Source of the DNA: an uncultured bacterium
GTDB taxonomy: Bacteria > Patescibacteriota > Minisyncoccia > UBA6257 > 2-01-FULL-56-20
DNA length: 64,000 nucleotides
NCBI GenBank assembly: GCA_963719425.1
Contig: OY970382.1
Location: forward strand, 586,880-650,879
Reading direction: 5' to 3'
Shown here: piece by piece, positions 42,834-64,000 of the stretch
Layout: every line of letters begins with the position of its first letter
Numbering within the stretch: the stretch's first letter is position 1
Notes under the pieces: generated by a model
What the model was told of the DNA's origin: nothing
Database searches by the model: none
The model's input: only the letters and a program-made list of their open reading frames with translations
Position numbers and translations under genes: made by a program

Positions 42834-42916
42834 GCCCGGGTGGCGGAATGGCAGACGCAATCGCCTCAAGAGCGATCGGCCGTAAGGCCATGCGAGTTCG
42901 ACTCTCGCCTCGGGCA
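42834..42916 (+). tRNA. tRNA-Leu (anticodon CAA)
   Basis: Type II tRNA with acceptor GCCCGGG/CTCGGGC (one G-U pair), anticodon loop CTCAAGA and long variable arm GGCCGTAAGGCC. CC is encoded. Confidence 0.85.
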
Positions 42917-42975
42917 CCGCGAGAATTTAACAAAAACTTAATACTTATTTAATGCCGCGTTGGTAGTATAGTGTC

Positions 42976-43683
42976 GTGCCCAAAAGAAGGTTACCGCCAA
43001 AGAATTTCGAATGGACGCCGAAACTTGCGTATGTGGTGGGGCTTTTGGTAACCGATGGGAATTTATCAAAGAACGGACGGCAGGTTATTATGCGCTCGGC
43101 AGAGCTTCCATTGCTCGAAACTTTTAAACAATGTCTCGGCATTGACGCAAAGATTGGAGTCGCAAAGAAAAAGACCGGCGATGTTTCCTATCGGGTGCAA
43201 TTCAGCAATGTCCAATTCTATGACTGGTTGCTCAGGATAGGACTATTCCCCGCAAAAAGTTATACAATAGGTCGTATTGACATCCCAGATAAATTTTTCC
43301 GGGATTATTTCCGCGGCTGCATAGATGGCGACGGCAGTATCCAAACCTATAAAGATAGTTATAATGTTTATCGCGGGCGGCGATATAGCACGCAACGTCT
43401 CTTTATAAAACTTGTTTCGGCGAGCGAAAAACACATTCGCTGGGCACGCTATAGAATAAATAATCTCGTAGGAATTTGCGGTGCGATTATAAGAAATAAA
43501 CCTGCCAGCGAAAATCGAGTTCTGATGTGGGAATTAAAATTCGCCAAGAAAGAATCACTACGCTTAATTAACTGGATGTATTATGCGCCAGATATTCCTT
43601 GTTTAGAACGAAAACGAGCGATTGCCCGAAACGCGCTCGCTATCATAAAGCAAGAAAAGCGACGCGAATACAGCCGAATATAA
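42976..43683 (+). CDS. LAGLIDADG homing endonuclease (two-motif, free-standing)
   Basis: Motif 1 LAYVVGLLVTDGNL and motif 2 FRGCIDGDGSI. GTG start. It lies between tRNA-Leu(CAA) and tRNA-Leu(UAA). Confidence 0.8.
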   Translation: MPKRRLPPKNFEWTPKLAYVVGLLVTDGNLSKNGRQVIMRSAELPLLETFKQCLGIDAKIGVAKKKTGDVSYRVQFSNVQFYDWLLRIGLFPAKSYTIGRIDIPDKFFRDYFRGCIDGDGSIQTYKDSYNVYRGRRYSTQRLFIKLVSASEKHIRWARYRINNLVGICGAIIRNKPASENRVLMWELKFAKKESLRLINWMYYAPDIPCLERKRAIARNALAIIKQEKRREYSRI

Positions 43684-43695
43684 TCTGAAGCAATG

Positions 43696-43779
43696 TGCCC
43701 GGGGTCGGGATCGAACCGACACGCTCTTGCGAGCAGGGGATTTTAAGTCCCCTCTGTCTACCGATTTCAGCACCCGGGC
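43696..43779 (-). tRNA. tRNA-Leu (anticodon UAA)
   Basis: Acceptor GCCCGGG/CCCGGGC, anticodon loop CTTAAAA, variable arm GCTCGCAAGAGC and T-arm GTCGG-TTCGATC-CCGAC. Confidence 0.85.
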
Positions 43780-43791
43780 AAATCGGGTTGG

Positions 43792-43864
43792 AGGCCTGGG
43801 CGGGAATCGAACCCGCGTATATGGGTTTTGCAGACCCATGCCTTGACCATTTGGCTACCAGGCC
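43792..43864 (-). tRNA. tRNA-Cys (anticodon GCA)
   Basis: Acceptor GGCCTGG/CCAGGCC, anticodon loop CTGCAAA and T-arm GCGGG-TTCGATT-CCCGC. CCA is encoded. Confidence 0.85.
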
Positions 43865-45793: not shown

Positions 45794-45854
45794 TGAAATG
45801 TAGCAAAAAACATTGATAAAAACAAGTTTCTCGTGTACGTTTAACGAGTGCGCT

Positions 45855-45941
45855 GGAGGCGTGGCCGAGTGGTTTAAGGCAGCATCCTGCTAAGATGTTA
45901 AGGGAGAAATCCCTTCGAAGGTTCGAATCCTTCCGCCTCCG
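45855..45941 (+). tRNA. tRNA-Ser (anticodon GCU)
   Basis: Type II tRNA with acceptor GGAGGCG/CGCCTCC, anticodon loop CTGCTAA, a long variable arm and T-arm AAGG-TTCGAAT-CCTT. Confidence 0.85.
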
Positions 45942-46052
45942 CCCGTTAGGGCATCGGTTCGAGAGACCTTCCGGCCTCGGATTTTGCTATCTTTTTGAAA
46001 CGCAGTTCAGGCGACGAATCGCGACAGGTGTCTAGGACTCGAACCTCAAGAT

Positions 46053-47513
46053 CTAATAAGCCGCGGTCACCGTCCGATGATACGGCTTTTCGTGCTTGCT
46101 CTTGTCTTGCCCCATGAGCCAGAGGTGATCATTGATGCCAATAGGCATGACTCGCTTGCCGATCTTTTCGAGTTCCTGTCGGATGAATTCAATCGCCCAG
46201 ATAGTGTTTGCGCGGATATCGATCTCTTCCTGTTCGCCGTGGATCAGAGGAGTTTTGCTGTCCACCTTCTCCGCCAGACTTTTTGTATACGAGATAATAC
46301 CCAGCGTCCTCAACGACTGTGGAAGCTTGTAATCAGCGCATGCGGTGAGTCGCTCGGCGTTCGTGAGATTACCGTAGCCCTTCCTATCGAAAAGTTGGTA
46401 GATGTCGGCGACCAAGAGCTGCGCTCGCTTGTAAAATTCAATCTTCTGGCCGTAGAAGATGGCGGTGTCGTCAAATGAGGGAAAGTTCCGGATGATGTGT
46501 CCCAAGAGTTTCACGGCGTCGCCATTGGCTTGTTTCACGAATTCTGTGAAGCTGCCTCCATTGTTTTTCATAAGGTGGGCGGCGACCTCCTTCGTGATTT
46601 TCCATCGCTCTTCAAAGAGCGGAATTTCCACGTTGCCTCCCAAGATTTCTTGATATTCTCTTCTGCTTATCTTCGATCGGTATTTCGCGTCCAGAATCGG
46701 CTTGCCGTTCTCAAGCGCCCGCAGGATGGCGGCCACCATGCCCCATGAACCGTCGTAGCGCTCGCCGCGATATTCTACCATCCACTTCGGATCGCCCCAG
46801 TAGCAGAAGCTCGTGGAGTTGAAGACCAAGAGGAAGTTCAGTTTCTCTTCGTCGCTCAAGTGCGAGAAGCTCAACGGGGAGCCGCTTAGCCAATGTAGAA
46901 CATTGCGATGCTTGAATGTTTTGGCGAATTCGGTGATTTTCTCTCTATCGATTTTTACATACTTCGACTTCTCGACCGCGATCCGGGTCGTTTCCAAAAC
47001 CTTGGGTTCTGCAATGATAAGGAACAGTTTTATGGTCGACTTGAACCCTTCCGTATATTTCTTCGGATTCGCCTGCATGTCCTTCAAAACGTTTTCTGGC
47101 TTTGCCCAGTACACGCTCTTGACCTCGTCCTCTTTGAGCCGCACAGGATTTGCCTTGCAGACGTATACCCTGAACATATGCCTGCTATCGAACGCCTCAC
47201 CGTCGAAGTTCTTACCGACGTCGCGGGCTTGTGTCGAACCTATACTGCGCAGCTGAACGCCCGCGACGCCAAGCTCTTCTTCCAATTCGCGCTTGGCCGC
47301 AACGAAGTATTCCTCTCCGGCATCTACGTGGCCCGCCGACGAATGATCAAGATGGCCGTCTTTCGCCCGCTCGTTCACGAGAATTTCTCCTTTGTCGTTC
47401 ACGAGGTAAATGACGGCGACCCGATGGAGCAGTCCTTCTTTATGCGCCTTCCGGCGCGTTACCTCACCAATCACATTGTCGCGGTCGTCGACCCAGATGA
47501 CATTATTGTTCAT
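46053..47513 (-). CDS. Nudix hydrolase fused to a Qng1/DUF2419 queuosine-salvage domain
   Basis: N-terminal Nudix box GHVDAGEEYFVAAKRELEEELGV. The C-terminal roughly 330 aa carry FYKRAQLLVADIYQLF, ADYKLPQSLRTLGII and EEIDIRANTIWAIEFIR, which match conserved Qng1 (C9orf64) blocks. Confidence 0.7.
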   Translation of the reverse strand: MNNNVIWVDDRDNVIGEVTRRKAHKEGLLHRVAVIYLVNDKGEILVNERAKDGHLDHSSAGHVDAGEEYFVAAKRELEEELGVAGVQLRSIGSTQARDVGKNFDGEAFDSRHMFRVYVCKANPVRLKEDEVKSVYWAKPENVLKDMQANPKKYTEGFKSTIKLFLIIAEPKVLETTRIAVEKSKYVKIDREKITEFAKTFKHRNVLHWLSGSPLSFSHLSDEEKLNFLLVFNSTSFCYWGDPKWMVEYRGERYDGSWGMVAAILRALENGKPILDAKYRSKISRREYQEILGGNVEIPLFEERWKITKEVAAHLMKNNGGSFTEFVKQANGDAVKLLGHIIRNFPSFDDTAIFYGQKIEFYKRAQLLVADIYQLFDRKGYGNLTNAERLTACADYKLPQSLRTLGIISYTKSLAEKVDSKTPLIHGEQEEIDIRANTIWAIEFIRQELEKIGKRVMPIGINDHLWLMGQDKSKHEKPYHRTVTAAY

Positions 47514-48261
47514 ATTTATTCTTGAGATACTTATCCACGAATTTTCCGACTTCTTCGTTTACTTGCTTGATTACTTCTGGATGATAGCGATAATCATGAT
47601 CGCAATCCACTTTCACTACAATTTTCGGCTCTGGCACTTCGGCAAATAATTTTTCAGCTATTTCGGTTGGGGTAAATTCGTCTTGTGTTCCATAGATTAA
47701 AAGCTTCGGTTTCGTGAGGGTTCTTAAAATTTCTCCCGCATTGTATTGTTTACCATCCTCCCAATAAGCGATCGGCAGCTTGAATTCCTTCCGCTCTTTC
47801 GTTATAGAAGTTCCGGGTGGCAAATCCCTGCGCGATAACTTATACCCTTGTTTAGCTGCATCTTCGCCCGGGGCAGTAGGTTCGCCAAAATTCGCCATGA
47901 TTGGTACGAGGCCGACCACAGCAGGATTTGAGCTTGCGAATATCGCCGTGGCCGCCCCTCGGCTGTGACCGATTAACAGAGTTGGCCTGTTCCCGAAATA
48001 TTCAATCAGTTCATTAACGGCCTTGATGTAATTCGTGGTGGTATATAAATCGATGCTACCCGGGCTTTCCCATGTGCCCGGCGGGTCAAACGCTACCGCA
48101 TAAAAACCTCGTTCAGCGAGATAATCCGCATGGCTTGGAAAACATGCGTAATCTTTGGTGTCCAGTCGGCCGGGCAAAATCAACGCTAACTTCTTCGCAC
48201 TTCGATCACCTCGCGAAAGCACTGCAAGTTCAAACGATTTTGTTTTGATGACATCTCCCAT
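47503..48261 (-). CDS. alpha/beta hydrolase (dienelactone hydrolase/esterase-like)
   Basis: GHSRG nucleophile elbow. Start moved to MGDVIKTK (48261) to avoid an 89-nt overlap with the upstream gene. Confidence 0.65.
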   Translation of the reverse strand: MGDVIKTKSFELAVLSRGDRSAKKLALILPGRLDTKDYACFPSHADYLAERGFYAVAFDPPGTWESPGSIDLYTTTNYIKAVNELIEYFGNRPTLLIGHSRGAATAIFASSNPAVVGLVPIMANFGEPTAPGEDAAKQGYKLSRRDLPPGTSITKERKEFKLPIAYWEDGKQYNAGEILRTLTKPKLLIYGTQDEFTPTEIAEKLFAEVPEPKIVVKVDCDHDYRYHPEVIKQVNEEVGKFVDKYLKNKYEQ

Positions 48262-48741: not shown

Positions 48742-49350
48742 TTAAGTATCAGCTTTAATCAACTTAACGATTTCAGGAAACTTCGGCACATTAAAATGTC
48801 CGTTCTTGCTCTTATACACAACAATGTGCGCGTTCTTTAGTTTCTTCCTATATTTTTCGGCCTGGGAAACGGGTACTATATCGTCATCCTTGGAAAAAAG
48901 GAGGTGGAGATTTCTACAATTCTTCTCAATCAACGAGAGATTTACCTTCAGCTTAAAGCCGCCAACCAGATCCTCCTCGGGTAAGGTGTTGTCGAATGGC
49001 GGGCAGACTAAATATGCTGCCAAGGCCTTCCTGGGCAATTTGTTTTCAGAGAGATATTTTGCGAGAAAAACCCCACCAAGCGAAGAACCTATCAAGATAA
49101 AGTTGCTCCCCAAAATGGGGACATACCGCTCAAAGATAATTTTCCAATCTCGATATTTCGCGTTGTCTTGCAGGGGCATACGCGGCGCAATGATCTCGAA
49201 TTTCCTGCCCAGGCTTTTTTCGAGATAGTCGCCAGCCCAATACACTTTTTTCTTCGCCGAAATTTTTTTAGTTCTGAGGTAACGAAGATAATCCTTCTCG
49301 CTTTTGAAGGTCATTCCACCGTGCACTGTTAAAATTCGGATCTTTTTCAT
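48742..49350 (-). CDS. alpha/beta-fold serine hydrolase (RBBP9/YdeN-like)
   Basis: GSSLGG nucleophile motif, about 200 aa. AT-rich gene. Confidence 0.55.
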   Translation of the reverse strand: MKKIRILTVHGGMTFKSEKDYLRYLRTKKISAKKKVYWAGDYLEKSLGRKFEIIAPRMPLQDNAKYRDWKIIFERYVPILGSNFILIGSSLGGVFLAKYLSENKLPRKALAAYLVCPPFDNTLPEEDLVGGFKLKVNLSLIEKNCRNLHLLFSKDDDIVPVSQAEKYRKKLKNAHIVVYKSKNGHFNVPKFPEIVKLIKADT

Positions 49351-50431: not shown

Positions 50432-51778
50432 CTAACTGTTTTCTTCAATCAAAATCTGCTTGTTCTTCAGCTTCAACCAACTCTTCAGGTTCACAAGCAA
50501 CTCTCGCTTCTCGGTAATGCTGCCCTCTTTGAGGAGATATTTTGCGTAGGTCTTGAAATCGATATCCTCAGCTTCTTTCTTTATCTTTTGCTCGATTTTG
50601 TCGATGCCAAACATGGCTCGTTTGAAGTGCTTATAGCGCTCAATCTCTTCCTCAAATTTCTTTTTAACGCCGATCTCATTCATATCAATCTGGTCCATAA
50701 GCTTCACGAGTTGCGCGATAAGATCCTCTTCCCGGATCGCCCCGCCCTTGCAGTGCAAATCGCGGCTCCGTGTGCAGGCATAATAGACGTAACGATGTAC
50801 GTTGCCATTCTTCTGCTTCTTGAACTTCTCATCGGCCGTGATGCCCGATCCGCACTCGGCGCATTTGATGAGCTTCGTGAAAGCGAACTCTTTTGATTCC
50901 CGCTGGATATGATCGCGCTTCAATTGTTCCTGCACTTTGTCGAAGAGATCCCGTGAGACGAGCGGCTCGTGTTTCCCGTTGTACCAGTTACCGCTTTTCT
51001 GGGGATATTCGAAGACGCCGTAATAAAAAGTGTTTTGTAAGATCACGTAGATATTTCCGAGCGATAAATGATGGTTGCTCTTCGTCCGGAAGTTCAGCTC
51101 GAATTTGAGCCAGTGGAAAAGCTTTCTCCCAGACCAGCGATCAAATGCCACTTTCTCAAACATCTTTTTGATCACAGGCGCTCGCTCGGCGTCGATGATA
51201 ACTTGGCATTTCCGCTCGGCAAGCCGCTGCGTGAGGTAGCCTGTTGGCGGGGTCGTTGGCCACAATCCCATCTCGCATCGTGCCCGCTGACCTCGCCTGA
51301 TATTCACCCCTCGGTTATCGTTCTCGAGTTTCGCCTGCGAACACAGGATCATAAGAAGGAATTTCTCATTCGGCGAATTCGAGAAATGCTGGCCATACGT
51401 CCGTATCTCGAGCAATAGTTTTTGATCCATCAGATCAACGAGCGAACCGAGGTCGCCCGCGTTCCTGCTTAACCGATCCGGCGCCCACGTGAGGATGCCG
51501 TTGAACTTGCCCATACGAAGATCATTAATCATCTCGTTGAAGATCGGCCGCTGCCCGGTCGCTTTCGCCGAGTGGCTCTCCCGCTTCATCTCCACAATCT
51601 CCAAATTCTCACGTTCTGCGATCTGAAGCATCTCCTTAATTTGCGAGTCGATGGAAAGGATCTGACGCTCCTCCGATTCAGTGCTTTTTCTTGCGTAGAG
51701 GCAGTATTTGACCTTTATGGGAATCTCCACTGTTGGCTGGATCCCGACTCCCCGGGGATCCGTTGTTTTTGCGGTCAT
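50432..51778 (-). CDS. large serine recombinase (integrase/resolvase family)
   Basis: N-terminal resolvase domain (YARKSTESEERQILSIDSQ), recombinase domain and a C-terminal zinc ribbon (CAECGS...YYAC) with coiled-coil. Confidence 0.85.
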   Translation of the reverse strand: MTAKTTDPRGVGIQPTVEIPIKVKYCLYARKSTESEERQILSIDSQIKEMLQIAERENLEIVEMKRESHSAKATGQRPIFNEMINDLRMGKFNGILTWAPDRLSRNAGDLGSLVDLMDQKLLLEIRTYGQHFSNSPNEKFLLMILCSQAKLENDNRGVNIRRGQRARCEMGLWPTTPPTGYLTQRLAERKCQVIIDAERAPVIKKMFEKVAFDRWSGRKLFHWLKFELNFRTKSNHHLSLGNIYVILQNTFYYGVFEYPQKSGNWYNGKHEPLVSRDLFDKVQEQLKRDHIQRESKEFAFTKLIKCAECGSGITADEKFKKQKNGNVHRYVYYACTRSRDLHCKGGAIREEDLIAQLVKLMDQIDMNEIGVKKKFEEEIERYKHFKRAMFGIDKIEQKIKKEAEDIDFKTYAKYLLKEGSITEKRELLVNLKSWLKLKNKQILIEENS

Positions 51779-53263: not shown

Positions 53264-53564
53264 GGTTTTGCTGATTTTCGTTTCGACCTTTGCGGAGCGG
53301 CCTGTTTGCCCTCCAACAACATGAATGACGCAACGGCCATGGAAGTCCAGCGTCCACGAAGGCCCAAAAACTCTGAACCCCGTGTCAGCTAGGCCTTGCG
53401 GCCCCATACCGGTTTCCCGATATGGCCCAATCACGAGTCGCTGAACGCGGGGTTCAGAATTCGTGATTGGGTCTTACGAGCCATGCCGAGCAAGACGCTT
53501 GGTTTAGACTCAGGGGCTTGCGCCCCACTATTCAGTTGTTGCCTTTATGATAGCGCTTTTAATG

Positions 53565-55365
53565 TTATTTTTTCAAGAAGTCACCTCGCGCGAAACCCTC
53601 AAAGAAATCGTCCCAGCCCCCTCCCGACGAACCGTGAGAAGACCCGCCGCCGTTCTCGTCCGACCAGCCGAGGCGCGGGGAACCGCCTCCCGACGAGAAG
53701 CGTATGCCCGACGATCCTCCACCAGAGGGTCCACCAGAATCATCGTTCCACGACGGGTTTCTCTCGTACAATCGCTCAGCCGCATCCGAGAGTATGCTAT
53801 GCAGCCGCTCGCTGTTCATTGGCCCGTCGTCAATGAGCGGCGTGAAAGAAGGACGCGAGGAAGGGCCGAGATCGATCCAATGAATGGCGGGCAACGTGCC
53901 GTCATCAACGTAGCCCTCAATGATCTGCCGGACGGCGGTCGTGAAGGCGTCGACCAGATCATCGAAGCGCTCCGTACCGAAGCCGGTGAGCTGCCGGATG
54001 AGCTCTTCGGCTCCGTAACGTGGGAATAAAACCTTTCCCGCGTAGAGGAGATCCGTGCACGACGCGAGGCGCGACCGCTTGTCCGTCGTCACGTGGATGC
54101 CCTTGACCTTGTCGTCGTGGATGCCGTCGCTTTTCAATTGGTCCACCGCCGCCTGCTGGAACTGGTTGTTCTCGATGTCGATCTCCGTGTGGCCGCGCTG
54201 TGCAAGCGTGCGATAGAGTTCCTTCATCTTTGCAATCGTGGCCGGAAAATCCATCCGGTCGTTCACGATGTTTGGTAGCACGTAGGCGGTGAATTCTTTG
54301 CCGTAGCCGGACACGAGGATCGGCACCATGGCCGTTTTATCGGCGGTTTCTTTTTGCGAAATCGCCAAGTCCGTGCCGATGTGCGTCGCGCGATAGTGCT
54401 CGATCTCAGGAAGCTCGTCGTAGTAGTGAATCATCTCATTGCGCACCACCTGATCTTCGTCGGGCACGATGTTCAAGAGGTATTCCCTCTGCCATGCAAT
54501 CTCGTTGCCGACCCGCAGGCGTTCTTTGATCACGTCCTTGATGCCCGCGTATTTGCCGGGCCAGAGTACCGTGTCGTTCTCGGCGATCAGTGGGTACCGC
54601 TTGTAGGCGCCAGAGCGCTTGCCCTCGTCAATCTCCCGGATGAGCCGCATGAGCAAAGAGTCGTCATGCAAGAGATTCCCGATCACAATAAACCGCGTGG
54701 TCTTGTCGCCCAAAGGAAAGATGTCGCGCGTCACCCATTCGTAGGTGGCGTTTCTCGTTTCCTGCGTGCGCACGCTCGCAACATCCTCACAGTCGTCCAA
54801 AATGCAGAGGTCGGGCCGGAACGCGCCGTGTTTGATACCGCGCACGCTCTGCTCGGCGCTCGCCGCCGTGATCCTCGCGTTGTAATTCGGGATCACGAGC
54901 GAGAAGGAATTCCAGTCGTCCTCCTCGCGGAAGGGACCGAGGTCGTTCCTCAAAAGCGGATTGCCGTCCAGCTGGTCCTTGATGTTCCGGAGGTACTGCT
55001 TCGCCTGCGCGAGCGTCTTCCCGAAGATGACGACGTGTTTTTTCTTCTGCTTGCCCGTGACAGCCCAGATTGGATAAAGCTCCGCGAATAGGGTCGTCTT
55101 GCCGCTGCCCCCTGAACGCCATAACAATGGCAAGGTCGGCCGAGTCCGACTCTATGATCTGGTGCATTTCGTAGTGCATGGGCGCGGGCGCGTAGGTCAT
55201 CCGGTCCGGGAAGTAGCACGGCACGAACCAGCTGAAGCTCTGGCCCGTGACGGCGACCCGAAAGTCACGGTCAACGAGCATCCGCTCCAGTATCTTCTTG
55301 ATCTCATCCGCGTTTCCGGCTCCGTACGCCGGTATATTACTATTGTTGTTTTGATTCTGTTCCAT
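53565..55365 (-). pseudogene. phage terminase large subunit (TerL), interrupted by a +1 frameshift in a G5 homopolymer
   Basis: N-terminal 95 aa sit in one frame (ORF 54787..55365, ...LAIVMAFRG). The ATPase and nuclease domains sit in the next frame (Walker A RSGGSGKTT, Walker B DLCILDD, nuclease GTDLAIS...). The frames join at AGGGGGCAG near 55107-55113, where AGGGGCAGC would give ...FRGSGKTT. Confidence 0.65.
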
Positions 55366-55828: not shown

Positions 55829-56593
55829 TTACGTGATGCGGCGAGGTGTGAGGCCGAACAACTTCTCCATGCGGGTCAAAATCGTCTGGCAATACTCCTC
55901 GTCGCGTTCTATTAACACGCTCGACCTTTTGACCTGTTCGGCGGCGACGGCCGTCGTGCCGGAACCGGCACAACAGTCGTACACCGCGTCTCCAATAGCC
56001 GTGGAATTGAGGATGAGCCGCCGCACGAGGCCGACGGGCTTCATTGTGGGGTGAAGCGGGCTCTTCGCCGGTTTTGGGAACCAGAGCACCGACTTGTCCT
56101 TCGCCTTGCGGAATTCGTGCTTGCCATACCAGCCGTAGGCGATGAGTTCGAACTGCGGGAGGTAATCCTTGCGTCCTATCACCGCATTGTTTTTGAGCCA
56201 CAGAAGGAGCTGGGAGAAATGGATGCCCGCCCGCTGCATTCCTTCGCGCAGGGCGAAGATCATGAAGTCGCTGTTGAAAACGTAGAAAGCATTCTTGGTC
56301 GCGAGATGCGGCAGGACGGGCATGATCCAGTCCTTCGTAAACTGCACATACTCGGACTCGCTCGTAATGTCGTCGTTCCAGACCTTCTTCGGCTTTCTGA
56401 TTTTGGAAAATCCCTCTTTGGATTCCACGATCCTAACTCCGTAAGGGGGATCGACTATCACGGCGCGTATTTTTGCGTTGCCGATTACGCGATCCACGAA
56501 CTTGGCGTCGCGAGCATCGCCGCACCCGAGCACGTGGTTGCCGATCCGGAAAATATCGCCGCACGCTATTTTGTTGATGGGAGATTTTTTCAT
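55829..56593 (-). CDS. DNA methyltransferase (N6-adenine/N4-cytosine, DPPY family)
   Basis: IVDPPYG motif IV and C-terminal AdoMet motif I (DCCAGSGTT). Confidence 0.85.
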   Translation of the reverse strand: MKKSPINKIACGDIFRIGNHVLGCGDARDAKFVDRVIGNAKIRAVIVDPPYGVRIVESKEGFSKIRKPKKVWNDDITSESEYVQFTKDWIMPVLPHLATKNAFYVFNSDFMIFALREGMQRAGIHFSQLLLWLKNNAVIGRKDYLPQFELIAYGWYGKHEFRKAKDKSVLWFPKPAKSPLHPTMKPVGLVRRLILNSTAIGDAVYDCCAGSGTTAVAAEQVKRSSVLIERDEEYCQTILTRMEKLFGLTPRRIT

Positions 56594-56598
56594 GAGGG

Positions 56599-57861
56599 TT
56601 ATTGCGTTAGCTTTTTATATCTGGCGACGATGAGGTCGCAGAACACGGGCTCCAATTCGACGAGGTAGGCCCGGCGTTTCAATTGGTGCGCGGCCACGAG
56701 CGTGCTGCCGCTTCCAGCAAAACTGTCCAAGATGATGTCGCCTGGCCGCGTACAGCGCCTGATCGCTTTTTCATGGAGAGTCGGCGGCTTGGCAGTCGCA
56801 TGCGTGTACTCGGTGCCCGGCAGTCGCCGCACGAGCCACAGATCAAGTTGGTCCAGAATGTCGTCGATCAGCCGATTGCCAGACGAGAGTTCCTTGTTCT
56901 GGATCTCGTTGAACGATTGAAGTCCCCTCGCGAGGAACGGCTTCCCGCGAACGCCATAGACCGCCGGTTCGTAGCACTTTGAAAAGGCGACGTCGGGCGT
57001 CGGGTTTTGCCCGTTCTTAACCCACAGGCACACGCGCTTGTTGTGGATGCCGAGTTCGGCATAGAGGGTCTGCAAAAGCCATACGTAGCTCTGGTCGCAG
57101 TAATAAAAGACGTGCGTATCGTCCTTCGCAACAGCAAGTGCGTTCACGATGCTCTCACGCAAGAACTCCTTGTATTCCGGATCGCTCCGTGTGTCGTTCA
57201 CGGTTGCCCCGTAGTTCGCGTGGCCGCCCACGCCTTTCGCGTATGACACGCCGCCTTTGAGGTTATAAACGGGATCAGAATAAATCATGGACGCCTTCTC
57301 GCTCCCGAAGAGTTTCTTCAAAATAGCGGCGTCGGTCGCATCGCCGCAAATCAATTTATGAGGGCCGAGCGTGATGACGTCGCCGAGCTTCGTCTTCGGT
57401 TTCTTTATTTTTTCCAGCTCGCGATCAATGTTGAATTCGTCATCTTCCACTTCCGCGATGTCGTCCCAGAGGTGCGCCAGTTCCTCGTCTTTAAAACCGA
57501 CGGTCAATAACAATTCCGTGTCGAATGTGCGGAGCAACTCGTATGCCCAGTCGCCACGCACGGCGTTTGAGGTGAGTAAGTATTGTTCGAACTCACGCTT
57601 CGTCAATTTGCGGTTCGGCACGCGCACTTCTATCTCCTCATTGCCGCGCCCCAAAAGTTGCAGCGCCTTCAACCTTTGGTGACCGGCGACCACCGTGCCG
57701 TCCGCGTCGATCGCGGGAAGTTCCACGACATTGAATTTCTTTAAACTATTTTTGAGCGCTTCAAGCTGCGCTTCGCCGATGGTGCGAGGATTTTTGGAAA
57801 ACGGAACGAGGGCGTTGATAACTTTTTTTTCCGTATGCCAAGTCAAAGATTGTTTACTCAT
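56599..57861 (-). CDS. ParB-like nuclease domain fused to a DNA methyltransferase
   Basis: N-terminal ParB/Srx fold (ELPAIDADGTVVAGHQRL), then SDPVYN (motif IV variant) and DSFAGSGST. Confidence 0.85.
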   Translation of the reverse strand: MSKQSLTWHTEKKVINALVPFSKNPRTIGEAQLEALKNSLKKFNVVELPAIDADGTVVAGHQRLKALQLLGRGNEEIEVRVPNRKLTKREFEQYLLTSNAVRGDWAYELLRTFDTELLLTVGFKDEELAHLWDDIAEVEDDEFNIDRELEKIKKPKTKLGDVITLGPHKLICGDATDAAILKKLFGSEKASMIYSDPVYNLKGGVSYAKGVGGHANYGATVNDTRSDPEYKEFLRESIVNALAVAKDDTHVFYYCDQSYVWLLQTLYAELGIHNKRVCLWVKNGQNPTPDVAFSKCYEPAVYGVRGKPFLARGLQSFNEIQNKELSSGNRLIDDILDQLDLWLVRRLPGTEYTHATAKPPTLHEKAIRRCTRPGDIILDSFAGSGSTLVAAHQLKRRAYLVELEPVFCDLIVARYKKLTQ

Positions 57862-62889: not shown

Positions 62890-64000
62890 TCAAAAAGAGG
62901 TTCCCGACCGATGATCACCGCAAATAGAGACTTCGCGATCAGAAAGAAATTTACCCTGCGTCCGCGCGGCGGACGCAACTGCCAAAATCTCGCGCCGCTT
63001 CGCGGCAAACTGGCTGGGTTCGGAAAATTCAAACAGGGCGGATTTATCACGAACCCTCGGGTTCGTTCCGATTTTTTGGACAAACGTTTTCAGATCACGG
63101 AACGTGCCGCCGTTTGCCAAAAAATCCGCTTGCTTCGTATCTTGTATCCATCCCCGCAAGGGTTCGACCCAGTTTTTTCTCCCGCGTTCAAAATCGTTCA
63201 GTTTTTCTTGGAGCGAGGCCGAGGCGCGCAACAATTCGTCCTTCCGTTTGAGATAGGTCGGCTTGGGGATGTCGCCATCCAGATAAGTTGAAACGAGCTT
63301 CTCCATCCGCGCCTCATTCGCCTTGATCTCATCGTTCAGATTTTGAACCGCGCTTTGCGACACCGATACATCTCCATTCTCCCACTCTTTGACCTTGCCT
63401 AGCATCCAATCGGTGTAGCGGTCGGAAAGCGCGATGGTTTGAAGCCGTACTTTGATCTGTCCCGCCAGCTCTGGCTCTTGGAGATAGGACTGCGAGCACC
63501 CGCCGCGCTTCTTGGAACAGCGGTAGTAGCGGTATTTCGTGCCCCAGCGATTGGTCGTCCACTGCGCGGAGATCATGGAGCCGCACTCGGCGCACCTGAA
63601 GAGTCCCGTGAAAGGAAAATCGTGTTTCGCGCGGCGGTGGCGCGGCCGTTCTTTGGACTTCAATACCTTCTGCACGGCTTCAAACAATGCGGGAGAAATA
63701 ATGGGTTCAAATTTTCCCTCAAACCATTCGTCGTTGTGCTTCACGAAACCGAGATAGGCGCGGTTCGTCAAAAGCCGCTTGATGGAAAATTTGGCAAGGG
63801 GCGTTCCGTTCTTAGAGACAACACCGAGGTCTTTCAGAAATAAGGCGAGGGACACGAACGAGTGCGTGCCTTTTTCGTACTCCTCGAAGGCGCGGCGGAC
63901 GATGCGGGCTTCCGTCGGATGCGGCTCGATGTTGCGCTTCAAGGGATTGTTCTGATAACCGAACGGCGCAAGATTGAGCCACTCGCCCCGCCGCAATTTC
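62890..64000 (-). CDS. large serine recombinase. The window holds the C-terminal recombinase and zinc-ribbon domains. The N-terminus lies beyond the window end.
   Basis: Recombinase domain, Zn ribbon CAECGS...YYRCSKKRGGC and coiled-coil. The ORF is open to position 64000. Confidence 0.8.
   Translation of the reverse strand, partial: KLRRGEWLNLAPFGYQNNPLKRNIEPHPTEARIVRRAFEEYEKGTHSFVSLALFLKDLGVVSKNGTPLAKFSIKRLLTNRAYLGFVKHNDEWFEGKFEPIISPALFEAVQKVLKSKERPRHRRAKHDFPFTGLFRCAECGSMISAQWTTNRWGTKYRYYRCSKKRGGCSQSYLQEPELAGQIKVRLQTIALSDRYTDWMLGKVKEWENGDVSVSQSAVQNLNDEIKANEARMEKLVSTYLDGDIPKPTYLKRKDELLRASASLQEKLNDFERGRKNWVEPLRGWIQDTKQADFLANGGTFRDLKTFVQKIGTNPRVRDKSALFEFSEPSQFAAKRREILAVASAARTQGKFLSDREVSICGDHRSGTSF

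What the first reader, a model, noticed from the sequence alone, without database searches (positions are those of the whole stretch)
46053..47513. Nudix hydrolase fused to a Qng1 (DUF2419) queuosine-salvage domain
The C-terminal 330 aa share several conserved blocks with Qng1/C9orf64 (queuosine-5'-phosphate N-glycosylase that releases queuine), for example FYKRAQxLVAD, ADYxLPQ and ExxIRxxxxWxxExIR. The N-terminal domain is a canonical Nudix hydrolase. The fusion suggests a single enzyme that first removes a pyrophosphate-linked group (a Q-containing dinucleotide or Q-nucleoside di/triphosphate?) and then liberates queuine. That would be a salvage route useful to an organism that cannot make queuosine de novo. 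The gene sits in the accessory region.
Basis: partly seen in the sequence, partly recalled or inferred. Interest (0 to 1): 0.65.

Follow-up and report, generated by a model that had tools for sequence, protein, structure and literature searches.

The report
Nudix fused to divergent Qng1-like glycosidase
A tiny-genome (CPR/Patescibacteria-type) bacterium has fused a nucleotide pyrophosphatase to a relative of the queuine-releasing enzyme Qng1, probably forming a two-step enzyme that recovers a modified base from scavenged nucleotides; the Qng1-like half has an altered base pocket, so that base may not be queuine.

Summary
Window 46053-47513 (-) is one 486-aa ORF with an N-terminal Nudix domain that has a canonical Nudix box and is YfcD-like. 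Its C-terminal domain matches Q_salvage/DUF2419 (Pfam E=2.9e-74; 39% identical to crystallised StQng1).

The fusion is real and rare. It arose at least twice from different Nudix parents, and a second lineage shows purifying selection on both halves after fusion. Nudix genes of several subfamilies also lie directly beside stand-alone Q_salvage genes: 12 of 71 loci, fusions included. In three further lineages the Nudix is fused to a PF06821 serine hydrolase instead, a gene the window also carries.

The Qng1-like half keeps the catalytic Lys/Asp, the 5'-phosphate pocket and the essential free C-terminal Tyr, so a Nudix-then-glycosidase route is well supported. The fusion belongs to an uncharacterised 'NS.ND' subfamily, found in CPR bacteria and DPANN archaea, in which the proposed general acid, the guanine-edge Asp and the queuine side-chain pocket are replaced. 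TGTs of related CPR bacteria also have a non-canonical pocket. Genome-wide presence of tgt and absence of queCDEF could not be tested.

The parts
46053..47513 (-). Complete fusion ORF, 486 aa plus stop: Nudix joined to a Q_salvage (DUF2419/Qng1-like) domain
   Evidence: identical in L001
47019..47513 (-). N-terminal YfcD-like Nudix hydrolase module (residues 1-165). It is collinear with complete stand-alone 162-170-aa Nudix proteins that are 72-75% identical.
47265..47333 (-). Canonical Nudix box GX5EX7REUXEEXGU (residues 61-83). The position of the catalytic Cys of IPP isomerase is Ala60.
47004..47018 (-). Five-residue junction 'IIAEP' (residues 166-170). It replaces the Nudix C-terminal tail and stop codon and the first two residues (MN/MS) of the stand-alone Q_salvage protein. 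There is no ATG, and only an AAGG 2 nt ahead of the nearest TTG, so no well-placed internal start.
46056..47003 (-). C-terminal Qng1-like HhH nucleotide N-glycosidase domain (residues 171-486), of the 'NS.ND' subfamily. It ends in Tyr486, whose free carboxylate is part of the active site in Qng1.
46326..46430 (-). HhH catalytic segment: Lys362 (St K199), Asp370 (St D207), Asp394 (St D231, the nucleophile), Tyr395 and Lys396 (phosphate contact)
47503..48261 (-). Alpha/beta-hydrolase (esterase-like) gene. Its stop codon overlaps the fusion ORF's ATG by 11 nt, so the two are probably co-transcribed. A distantly similar alpha/beta-hydrolase (21% identity, E about 5e-6) occupies the same position upstream of stand-alone Q_salvage in L059.
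48742..49350 (-). PF06821 Ser_hydrolase (YdeN-like) gene of the same co-oriented cluster. In L005, L060 and L065 this kind of domain is fused to a Nudix domain next to Q_salvage.
45854..45944 (+). tRNA-Ser(GCT) flanking the 3' end of the fusion gene; possible island insertion point (no att repeat was found)
50432..51778 (-). Large serine recombinase bounding the cluster on the other side. Prophage-like genes follow: terminase at 53565-55133, DNA methylases at 55829-57861, and a recombinase at 62890-63996.

Best explanation
The gene encodes a bifunctional nucleotide-salvage enzyme. It was made by a recent end-to-end fusion of two accessory-island genes in a Patescibacteria-type (CPR) bacterium.

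Step 1 (inferred): the YfcD-like Nudix domain hydrolyses the pyrophosphate bond of a modified purine nucleoside 5'-di- or triphosphate, or another NDP-X form, to give the 5'-monophosphate.

Step 2 (inferred from conserved catalytic and phosphate-binding residues): the Qng1-like helix-hairpin-helix domain cleaves the N-glycosidic bond through Asp394, with Lys362 and the free carboxylate of Tyr486 positioning the ribose. This releases the free base and ribose 5-phosphate.

The base is most likely a 7-deazaguanine-family or otherwise modified purine. The recognition residues differ from those of queuine-specific Qng1, so it is probably not recognised as queuine is in the characterised enzymes, and its identity is open. 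The fusion is one manifestation of a wider, undescribed three-part module (PF06821 serine hydrolase + Nudix + 'NS.ND' Q_salvage) in CPR bacteria.
For: Shown:
- Both domains are intact, with catalytic motifs.
- The 5'-phosphate pocket is kept as K243/K396/Q469, so an NMP, the product class of Nudix enzymes, fits.
- Qng1 is inactivated by C-terminal extension. All fusions seen (2 Nudix lineages and 4 methyltransferase fusions) are N-terminal, and Nudix genes lying downstream are never fused.
- The fusions arose independently. The Nudix halves are 31% identical while the Q_salvage halves are 75% identical. The junctions differ, and P0002 retains the ancestral 'MSQVLETT' start. In a neighbour-joining tree (no bootstrap) each fused Q_salvage domain groups with a different stand-alone protein.
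- Post-fusion dN/dS is 0.15 (Nudix) and 0.06 (Q_salvage) between L002 and L003.
- Nudix is the most frequent enzymatic neighbour: 5 of 138 flanking genes, Fisher p about 0.006 against other genes of the same loci. A Nudix domain lies within 500 bp in 12 of 71 loci, upstream, downstream or convergent, and comes from YfcD-like, other non-YfcD and hydrolase-fused types.
- Ser_hydrolase-Nudix fusions lie next to Q_salvage in L005, L060 and L065.
- Other neighbours act on nucleotides or RNA: HIT, NYN, PF05014 and TGT.
- DR_0079, the one biochemically characterised hydrolase among the solved structures that best match this Nudix domain, converts (d)NDP/(d)NTP (PMC5389931).
Against: There are no biochemical data for any member of the NS.ND subfamily, and none that I am aware of or found for YfcD-type Nudix enzymes other than DR_0079.

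Most Q_salvage loci (59 of 71) show no adjacent Nudix, although many are short contigs. The 12 positive loci are not all independent (L001 is the window; L002/L003 and L060/L065 are pairs), and the Fisher background count rests on my own profile and regex hits.

The closest stand-alone Nudix (72% identical, L061-L064) is not next to a Q_salvage gene. The closest stand-alone Q_salvage with context (L059) has no Nudix.

Q_salvage is also fused to unrelated methyltransferases, so fusion partners are not unique to Nudix.

Both genes are island cargo, so some co-location could reflect shared mobility rather than shared pathway.

Replacement of the proposed general acid N72 by Ser might mean altered or reduced catalysis.
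Confidence: 0.5

Rival explanations
1. The C-terminal domain is an orthodox Qng1 that releases queuine from queuosine 5'-monophosphate. The Nudix domain supplies Q-5'-MP from Q-5'-di/triphosphate (for example from phosphorolytic tRNA decay) or from a Q-containing dinucleotide. Queuine is then inserted by a queuine-type TGT in an organism lacking de novo Q synthesis.
For: There is a strong family match and 39% identity to StQng1. The nucleophile, the HhH Lys, the ribose and phosphate contacts, W302 and the C-terminal Tyr are conserved. TGT is widespread in Patescibacteria, and one Q_salvage-NYN-TGT cluster exists in L023. Q-5'-MP is the established Qng1 substrate and its source is an open question.
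Against: The residues that read queuine are changed in a subfamily-wide, covarying way: D69N, N72S (the proposed general acid), Y93S, D298N (the guanine edge) and W299D (the cyclopentenediol pocket). Both characterised enzymes keep D/N/Y. The subfamily occurs in DPANN archaea. CPR TGTs keep Val233, which blocks queuine in Z. mobilis TGT, and lack the published queuine motif.
Confidence: 0.25
2. General nucleotide catabolism rather than modified-base salvage. The NS.ND domain would be an NMP nucleosidase acting on common or damaged purine nucleotides (for example GMP, XMP, IMP or AMP). It would yield ribose 5-phosphate for central metabolism plus a base, in organisms that live on scavenged nucleotides. 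Nudix, HIT, histidine phosphatase and NYN neighbours would funnel diverse nucleotides into it.
For: The subfamily is distributed in both CPR bacteria and DPANN archaea. The neighbourhoods are rich in generic nucleotide and RNA hydrolases. An Asp-to-Asn change at the base-edge position is the kind of change that alters purine specificity in other nucleotide-binding proteins (my own knowledge, for example NKxD GTPases). Nudix partners come from several subfamilies.
Against: Characterised Qng1/QNG1 do not touch AMP, GMP, CMP or UMP. W302, the aliphatic stacking residue and most of the deep pocket are retained. One locus links the gene to TGT.
Confidence: 0.17
3. An accidental, functionally neutral fusion. 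Two tightly packed island genes lost the stop codon and intergenic spacer, and the two domains keep unrelated functions.
For: The fusion is very rare: 2 clusters among the top 120 hits, and none among the 150 representatives at 50% identity. The junction is a minimal 5-residue splice. The cluster lies in a variable island where gene order is shuffled.
Against: Two independent fusions arose from different Nudix parents. Both halves show purifying selection after fusion. Adjacency is statistically enriched in many arrangements, and Ser_hydrolase-Nudix fusions lie beside Q_salvage.
Confidence: 0.08

Closest known systems
Qng1/QNG1 (DUF2419, PF10343): queuosine-5'-monophosphate N-glycosylase of Sphaerobacter thermophilus, S. 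pombe and human C9orf64 (PMC9881137)
   Same: The fold family is the same (E=5e-67, 39% identity). Conserved features are the HhH Lys362 and Asp394, Asp370, Tyr395, the stacking Trp465 and Leu366, the 5'-phosphate pocket (K243, K396, Q469), His479, and the terminal Tyr486 with a free carboxylate.
   Different: There is an N-terminal Nudix domain. D69 is N, N72 (the proposed general acid) is S, F75 is Y, Y93 is S, D298 is N, W299 is D and H53 is S. It belongs to a separate covarying 'NS.ND' subfamily found in CPR bacteria and DPANN archaea, and no member of that subfamily has been characterised.
E. coli YfcD (PDB 2FKB) and Deinococcus DR_0079, Nudix hydrolases that match alongside IPP isomerases
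   Same: This is the best structural-sequence match (E=1.3e-12). It shares the N-terminal extension seen in IDI-type Nudix proteins and a canonical REx2EE box. DR_0079 hydrolyses (d)NDP/(d)NTP.
   Different: It scores 65 bits against the NCBIfam YfcD equivalog cutoff of 152, so it is not an equivalog. To my knowledge the substrate of YfcD itself is unknown. It lacks the IDI catalytic Cys (Ala60), so it is not an isomerase. It is fused to a glycosidase.
Bacterial queuine/queuosine salvage routes: Chlamydia direct queuine salvage (queuine-type TGT plus YhhQ) and Clostridioides QueK nucleoside hydrolase plus QueL lyase (as summarised in PMC11570991)
   Same: The overall purpose would be the same: recovering a 7-deazaguanine base for TGT in an organism that cannot make it.
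   Different: The enzymes differ (HhH nucleotide glycosidase plus Nudix, rather than QueK/QueL). It acts at the nucleotide level rather than the nucleoside level. The TGT pocket in related CPR bacteria is V158/GGLSVGE, unlike either published class.
Sanitise-then-deglycosylate handling of modified nucleotides, for example the DNPH1/Rcl (PF05014) dNMP N-glycosidase acting after (d)NTP pyrophosphatases (my own knowledge)
   Same: The logic is the same two steps, NTP to NMP and then NMP to base plus sugar phosphate. PF05014-like genes occur twice among the Q_salvage neighbours.
   Different: The glycosidase fold is unrelated. No fusion of the two steps has been described, and here the likely purpose is salvage of the base rather than only disposal.

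Membership tests
Q_salvage / DUF2419 (PF10343) superfamily | Profile match above Pfam's gathering threshold over the full domain | tested here: met
   250.6 bits against a cutoff of 25, covering profile positions 6-283 of 285
Qng1 (queuosine-5'-MP N-glycosylase) in the strict sense | HhH catalytic Asp (St D231) and Lys (St K199) | tested here: met
   D394 and K362. These columns are invariant or nearly so in about 150 representatives.
Qng1 (queuosine-5'-MP N-glycosylase) in the strict sense | Protein ends in the invariant Tyr, whose free carboxylate completes the active site | tested here: met
   Y486 is the last residue before the stop codon
Qng1 (queuosine-5'-MP N-glycosylase) in the strict sense | 5'-phosphate pocket (St R80, K233, Q306, Y232) | tested here: met
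   K243, K396, Q469 and Y395
Qng1 (queuosine-5'-MP N-glycosylase) in the strict sense | Proposed general-acid network D69/N72, required for complementation in S. pombe | tested here: not met
   N232 and S235. StQng1 and human QNG1 both have D and N.
Qng1 (queuosine-5'-MP N-glycosylase) in the strict sense | Queuine recognition: D298 reading the 7-deazaguanine edge, and the cyclopentenediol pocket formed by W48, Y93, W94, W299, P46 and H53 | tested here: not met
   D298 is N461, W299 is D462, Y93 is S, H53 is S and P46 is a gap. W48 and W94 are kept.
Qng1 (queuosine-5'-MP N-glycosylase) in the strict sense | Releases queuine from Q-5'-MP and is inactive on canonical NMPs | not testable with these tools
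   This needs an enzyme assay with an untagged C-terminus
Qng1 (queuosine-5'-MP N-glycosylase) in the strict sense | Genome context: tgt present, de novo queC/D/E/F absent | tested here: inconclusive
   No tgt was found in the 64-kb window. TGT is common in related Patescibacteria.
Nudix hydrolase superfamily (PF00293) | Nudix fold match and an intact GX5EX7REUXEEXGU box | tested here: met
   56.6 bits against a cutoff of 21.1; the box lies at residues 61-83
YfcD equivalog (NCBIfam NF011922) | Score above the curated equivalog cutoff | tested here: not met
   65.2 bits against a cutoff of 152. It is YfcD-like only.
Type 1 isopentenyl-diphosphate isomerase | Catalytic Cys (E. coli C67) and a degenerate Nudix box; score above the cutoff | tested here: not met
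   Ala60 aligns with the Cys of 3hyq; 61 bits against a cutoff of 127

The most novel reading that the evidence does not exclude
The 'NS.ND' clade of DUF2419 may not be a queuine-salvage enzyme at all. It could be a new nucleotide N-glycosidase specificity for a different base, for example preQ0, preQ1 or an archaeosine-type 7-deazaguanine, or a deaminated or otherwise modified purine. It would work with a Nudix pyrophosphatase and a PF06821 serine hydrolase as a three-enzyme pathway. Ultra-small CPR bacteria and DPANN archaea would use this pathway to process scavenged modified nucleotides. It may have co-evolved with the unusual Val158/GGLSVGE TGT pocket of Patescibacteria.
Probability: 0.35. 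Interest if true: 0.75.

Novelty: new variant of a known kind. Interest (0 to 1): 0.6.

Why it matters
Qng1 was only recently shown to act on queuosine 5'-monophosphate, and how that nucleotide is generated is still open; in eukaryotes the kinase is unidentified. Recurrent, independent genetic coupling of Qng1-like genes to Nudix hydrolases points to a pyrophosphatase route into the glycosidase and can be tested with one recombinant protein.

The finding also exposes a large uncharacterised subfamily in CPR bacteria and DPANN archaea. This subfamily keeps the catalytic core but replaces the proposed general acid and the queuine-reading residues. That either challenges the proposed Qng1 mechanism or marks a new substrate specificity.

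For CPR/DPANN biology it adds a candidate pathway for exploiting host-derived modified nucleotides. It also cautions that the database label 'queuosine salvage family protein' may be an over-annotation for this clade.

Tried and rejected
- **Structure prediction of the fusion** was abandoned. The combined MSA (A3) misaligned the stand-alone Nudix sequences (about 15% apparent identity). Only two fused sequences exist for inter-domain signal, and the tool returns no coordinates for inspecting the pocket.
- **Locating the window's own genome** failed. The genome-contig scan did not return it (best hit 76% identity), and the look-up of encoding contigs read only the 5.6-kb Logan contig, not the 888-kb NCBI contig. 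The genome-wide tgt/queCDEF check was therefore impossible.
- **The Nudix-half homology search** did not return P0001 or P0002 themselves. The word-index search can therefore miss fusions, and rarity rests mainly.
- **Literature.** No paper in the library mentions a Nudix-Qng1 fusion or CPR queuine salvage. Zallot 2014 (PMC4136680) is not held, so I cannot exclude that fusions were noted there.
- **IPP isomerase** was rejected as the identity of the N-terminal domain (Ala60 and a canonical Nudix box).
- **An internal start for a separate Q_salvage protein** was rejected (no ATG and no well-placed SD at the junction).
- **A search for an att direct repeat of the tRNA-Ser end** was negative.
- **The RBBP9 analogy for the PF06821 hydrolase** was not confirmed by sequence; only YdeN matches, at E=1e-4.
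Full report
**1. Observation**

The finding is real. Window 46053-47513 on the minus strand is an uninterrupted 486-aa ORF.
- Pfam places a NUDIX domain at residues 30-154 (E=3.5e-15) and a Q_salvage/DUF2419 domain at residues 220-484 (E=2.9e-74).
- Against solved structures, residues 172-486 align end to end with Sphaerobacter thermophilus Qng1 (7u07/7uk3, E=5e-67; 39% identity) and with human QNG1 (E=3.6e-48). Residues 8-143 match E. coli YfcD (2fkb).
- The Nudix box GHVDAGEEYFVAAKRELEEELGV (residues 61-83) is fully canonical.
- NCBIfam's best models are YfcD and IPP isomerase, both far below their cutoffs. The residue aligned with the isomerase's catalytic Cys is Ala60. The domain is therefore a YfcD-like hydrolase, not an isomerase.

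**2. Is the fusion genuine?**

The same DNA (100% over 5.6 kb) is present in a separate Logan assembly. That may derive from the same sample, so it argues against mis-assembly but is not an independent sample.

A diverged protein with the same architecture exists: P0002, 502 aa. Its close variant P0387 (NCBI MFH1089839.1) comes from a Candidatus Uhrbacteria MAG. These occur in two further assemblies, L002 and L003.

The fusion is rare. It accounts for only 2 of the top 120 clusters. None of the 150 best representatives at 50% identity is a Nudix fusion, in an exhaustive search of 1.84 billion proteins. No further fusion turned up among 12 metagenome loci.

**3. How it arose**

Both halves have stand-alone relatives in Patescibacteria: 162-170-aa Nudix proteins at 72-75% identity and 318-aa Q_salvage proteins at up to 80% identity.

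In the window protein the complete Nudix ('...FKSTIKLFL') is spliced through five residues ('IIAEP') onto residue 3 of the Q_salvage protein ('KVLETT...'). In P0002 a different linker is followed by the still-visible ancestral start 'MSQVLETT'.

The two Nudix halves are only 31% identical, while the Q_salvage halves are 75% identical. In a neighbour-joining tree (no bootstrap) each fused Q_salvage domain groups with a different stand-alone protein. These were therefore two independent fusions with different YfcD-like Nudix parents.

L002 and L003 both carry the second fusion, so their divergence is post-fusion. It gives dN/dS of 0.15 for the Nudix half and 0.06 for the Q_salvage half. Both domains are maintained in the fused state. 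Against its relatives the window gene shows pN of 0.11-0.15 with saturated synonymous sites.

**4. Genomic context in the window**

The ORF's ATG overlaps the stop codon of an upstream esterase-like alpha/beta-hydrolase gene by 11 nt. Further co-oriented genes are a 148-153-aa ORF without family matches, a PF06821 Ser_hydrolase (48742-49350) and a Zn-dependent alcohol dehydrogenase.

A tRNA-Ser(GCT) gene abuts the 3' end of the fusion gene (45854-45944). On the far side lie a large serine recombinase, a terminase, a LOOT RNA, two DNA methylases and another recombinase. G+C drops from about 0.55 to 0.46-0.50.

The cluster is therefore island cargo next to core genes (infB, rbfA). No att repeat was found.

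No tgt was found in the window. The motif scan finds none, and Pfam scans of 30 of the 55 called ORFs, including most of TGT-like size, find none.

**5. Is Nudix functionally tied to the Qng1-like gene?**

I fetched 55 genome loci and 12 metagenome loci that carry relatives.
- Among the two genes on each side of Q_salvage in 40 loci (138 proteins), NUDIX is the most frequent enzymatic family, with 5 members. Winged-helix regulators occur 7 times. NYN, PF05014 and a methyltransferase family occur twice each, and TGT once.
- Compared with the other genes of the same loci this is about a 10-fold enrichment (Fisher p about 0.006). The background count rests on my own profile and regex hits.
- Over all 71 loci with a Q_salvage gene, a Nudix domain lies within 500 bp in 12, including the three fused loci. 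These are not all independent: L001 is the window, and L002/L003 and L060/L065 are pairs.

The arrangements differ from locus to locus:

| Locus | Arrangement |
|---|---|
| L034 | Nudix 11 bp upstream of Q_salvage, same strand |
| L068 | a near-identical Nudix (by its Nudix-box motif) lies 9 bp downstream instead |
| L012, L026 | Nudix 7 bp downstream |
| L017, L072 | YfcD-like Nudix overlapping the Q_salvage stop codon |
| L008 | convergent, about 35-55 bp away |

In L005, L060 and L065 the neighbouring Nudix is itself fused to a PF06821 Ser_hydrolase domain (Pfam). That is the same kind of gene that sits two genes upstream of the fusion in the window. Nudix is thus fused to the hydrolase in some lineages and to Q_salvage in others. 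This Rosetta-stone pattern links three activities.

Other immediate neighbours are a HIT hydrolase (L005), an NYN ribonuclease followed by TGT (L023), a weak PF05014 protein (L003) and a histidine phosphatase (L058).

There is counter-evidence. The closest stand-alone Nudix (L061-L064) and the closest stand-alone Q_salvage with readable context (L059) are not adjacent to the partner gene. Most loci show no linkage.

**6. What the C-terminal domain can and cannot be**

From the Qng1 structure paper (PMC9881137) I mapped the functional residues.

| Role in StQng1 | StQng1 residue | Window protein |
|---|---|---|
| Nucleophile | D231 | D394 |
| HhH Lys | K199 | K362 |
| Catalytic network | D207 | D370 |
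| Ribose stacking | Y232 | Y395 |
| Base stacking | W302 / I203 | W465 / L366 |
| 5'-phosphate pocket | R80 / K233 / Q306 | K243 / K396 / Q469 |
| C-terminal anchor partners | E267, H316 | both conserved (H479) |
| Terminal Tyr (free carboxylate) | Y323 | Y486, the last residue |
| General-acid network | D69 | N232 (changed) |
| Proposed general acid | N72 | S235 (changed) |
| Ribose contact | F75 | Y238 (changed) |
| Stacks on base and 7-methylamine | Y93 | Ser (changed) |
| Reads the 7-deazaguanine edge | D298 | N461 (changed) |
| Cyclopentenediol pocket | W299 | D462 (changed) |
| Cyclopentenediol pocket | H53 | Ser (changed) |

The paper shows that C-terminal tags inactivate the enzyme. 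That explains why every fusion partner found is N-terminal and why Nudix genes lying downstream remain separate.

Human QNG1 shares D, N and Y with StQng1. Across about 150 family representatives these columns covary. 'NSND' is the largest class (44 sequences) and contains the window protein, P0002 and three of the four methyltransferase fusions. The characterised 'DNDW' type has 11. Nearly all fetched loci are NS.ND or DS.ND, including the fourth methyltransferase fusion, L035.

The domain is therefore almost certainly an NMP N-glycosidase of the Qng1 kind. A defining part of the queuine-specific machinery was tested and is not met. The subfamily also occurs in Nanoarchaeota, Woesearchaeota, Pacearchaeota and Micrarchaeota MAGs. 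As far as I know these use archaeosine, not queuosine.

**7. A hint from TGT**

The TGT next to an NS.ND gene (L023) has, in Z. mobilis numbering, Val158, Ser232 and Val233 ('GGLSVGE'). Of its 120 closest homologues, several labelled Uhrbacteria or Patescibacteria, 118 have LSV, and all 101 readable at position 158 have Val.

Published queuine-inserting bacterial TGTs carry GG[LS][AS]G, and preQ1 types carry GGLAVG (PMC11570991). Cys158Val lowers preQ1 affinity, and Val233Gly is what makes room for queuine (PMC3660597). The CPR pocket fits neither class. This is compatible with a different 7-deazaguanine substrate but proves nothing.

**8. Mechanism proposed**

Shown: two intact catalytic domains in one polypeptide, a conserved NMP-binding glycosidase core, recurrent independent Nudix linkage, and selection on both halves.

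Inferred: the Nudix domain converts a modified purine nucleoside di- or triphosphate, or an NDP-X conjugate, to the 5'-monophosphate. Such nucleotides could arise from phosphorolytic RNA decay or from phosphorylation of scavenged nucleotides. The glycosidase then releases the base for re-use, plausibly by TGT, together with ribose 5-phosphate.

DR_0079, the one biochemically characterised hydrolase among the solved structures that best match the Nudix domain, hydrolyses (d)NDP/(d)NTP. The PF06821 hydrolase and the esterase-like neighbour may remove an acyl or aminoacyl group first. That is speculation: RBBP9-type enzymes cleave aminoacyl amides and esters, but the window's hydrolase matches only YdeN.

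**9. Comparison and novelty**

The protein works like Qng1 preceded by a house-cleaning Nudix. It is a member of the DUF2419 superfamily but cannot be filed as an orthodox queuosine-5'-MP glycosylase.

Neither the fusion, nor the Nudix/PF06821 linkage, nor the NS.ND subfamily is mentioned in the searchable literature. NCBI labels the Uhrbacteria fusion simply 'queuosine salvage family protein'. I rate it a new variant of a known kind.

**10. Verdict**

| Item | Assessment |
|---|---|
| Observation | confirmed |
| Coupled two-step pathway, substrate unresolved | about 0.5 |
| Literal queuosine version | about 0.25 |
| General NMP catabolism | about 0.17 |
| Neutral accidental fusion | about 0.08 |
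| Interest | 0.6 |

Noticed in passing
P0242, P0243, P0254; L035:8307-9998: The same NS.ND Q_salvage domain is also fused at its N-terminus to generic class-I SAM methyltransferases (UbiE/BioC/ArsM-like). This occurs in at least four distinct proteins, one of them from a Woesearchaeota MAG. The role of a methyltransferase here is unexplained.
   Followed up: partly
L009, L031, L032, L035, L037, L038, L040, L041, L055 and others: Q_salvage homologues 40-55% identical to the window's occur in DPANN archaeal MAGs (Nanoarchaeota, Woesearchaeota, Pacearchaeota, Micrarchaeota). These organisms are not expected to use queuosine. MAG contamination was not excluded.
   Followed up: no
L023:3487-4725 and P0389-P0508: Patescibacteria TGTs share a uniform substrate pocket, Val158 plus GGLSVGE (118 of 120). 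It matches neither the canonical preQ1 type (Cys158/GGLAVGE) nor the published queuine type (GG[LS][AS]G). Their physiological base is an open question.
   Followed up: partly
L023:2003-4725: There is a compact Q_salvage, NYN ribonuclease, TGT gene string. It suggests an 'RNA decay, base release, re-insertion' unit.
   Followed up: partly
L005:11363-12484; L060:2-1084; L065:292-1413: PF06821 Ser_hydrolase-NUDIX fusion proteins lie next to Q_salvage. The L060 and L065 Nudix box has Gln in place of the final Gly (RESEEELQI).
   Followed up: partly
L072:43-699: This Q_salvage gene (72% identical to the window's) carries an in-frame stop at 466-468. It could be a pseudogene, a sequencing error or recoding.
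   Followed up: no
window 53391-53510 (-): A LOOT RNA motif (Rfam RF03000, 73 bits) lies immediately beside a terminase large-subunit gene (53565-55133) in the prophage-like part of the window.
   Followed up: no
window 42834-43864: A LAGLIDADG-domain ORF (42976-43683) is sandwiched between tRNA-Leu(CAA) and tRNA-Leu(TAA)/tRNA-Cys genes. It is a free-standing or remnant homing endonuclease in a tRNA cluster.
   Followed up: no
L059:2307-5968 and L061:109-3782: The same N6_N4 DNA methylase plus DEAD/ResIII helicase pair precedes the variable cargo region in both places. That region holds Q_salvage in one relative and the stand-alone YfcD-like Nudix in another, which suggests a shared hot spot or island scaffold for these cargo genes.
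   Followed up: no
Literature: PMC9508795: In E. coli, YfcD protein abundance is listed as modestly increased (0.60) in a tgt (queuosine-deficient) mutant proteome. This is a weak, possibly coincidental link between YfcD-type Nudix enzymes and Q metabolism.
   Followed up: no
Neighbours of Q_salvage in 40 loci: Winged-helix AsnC/MarR/TrmB-type regulators are the most frequent neighbours overall (7 of 138 flanking genes). I did not determine which loci they are in or how they are oriented.
   Followed up: no
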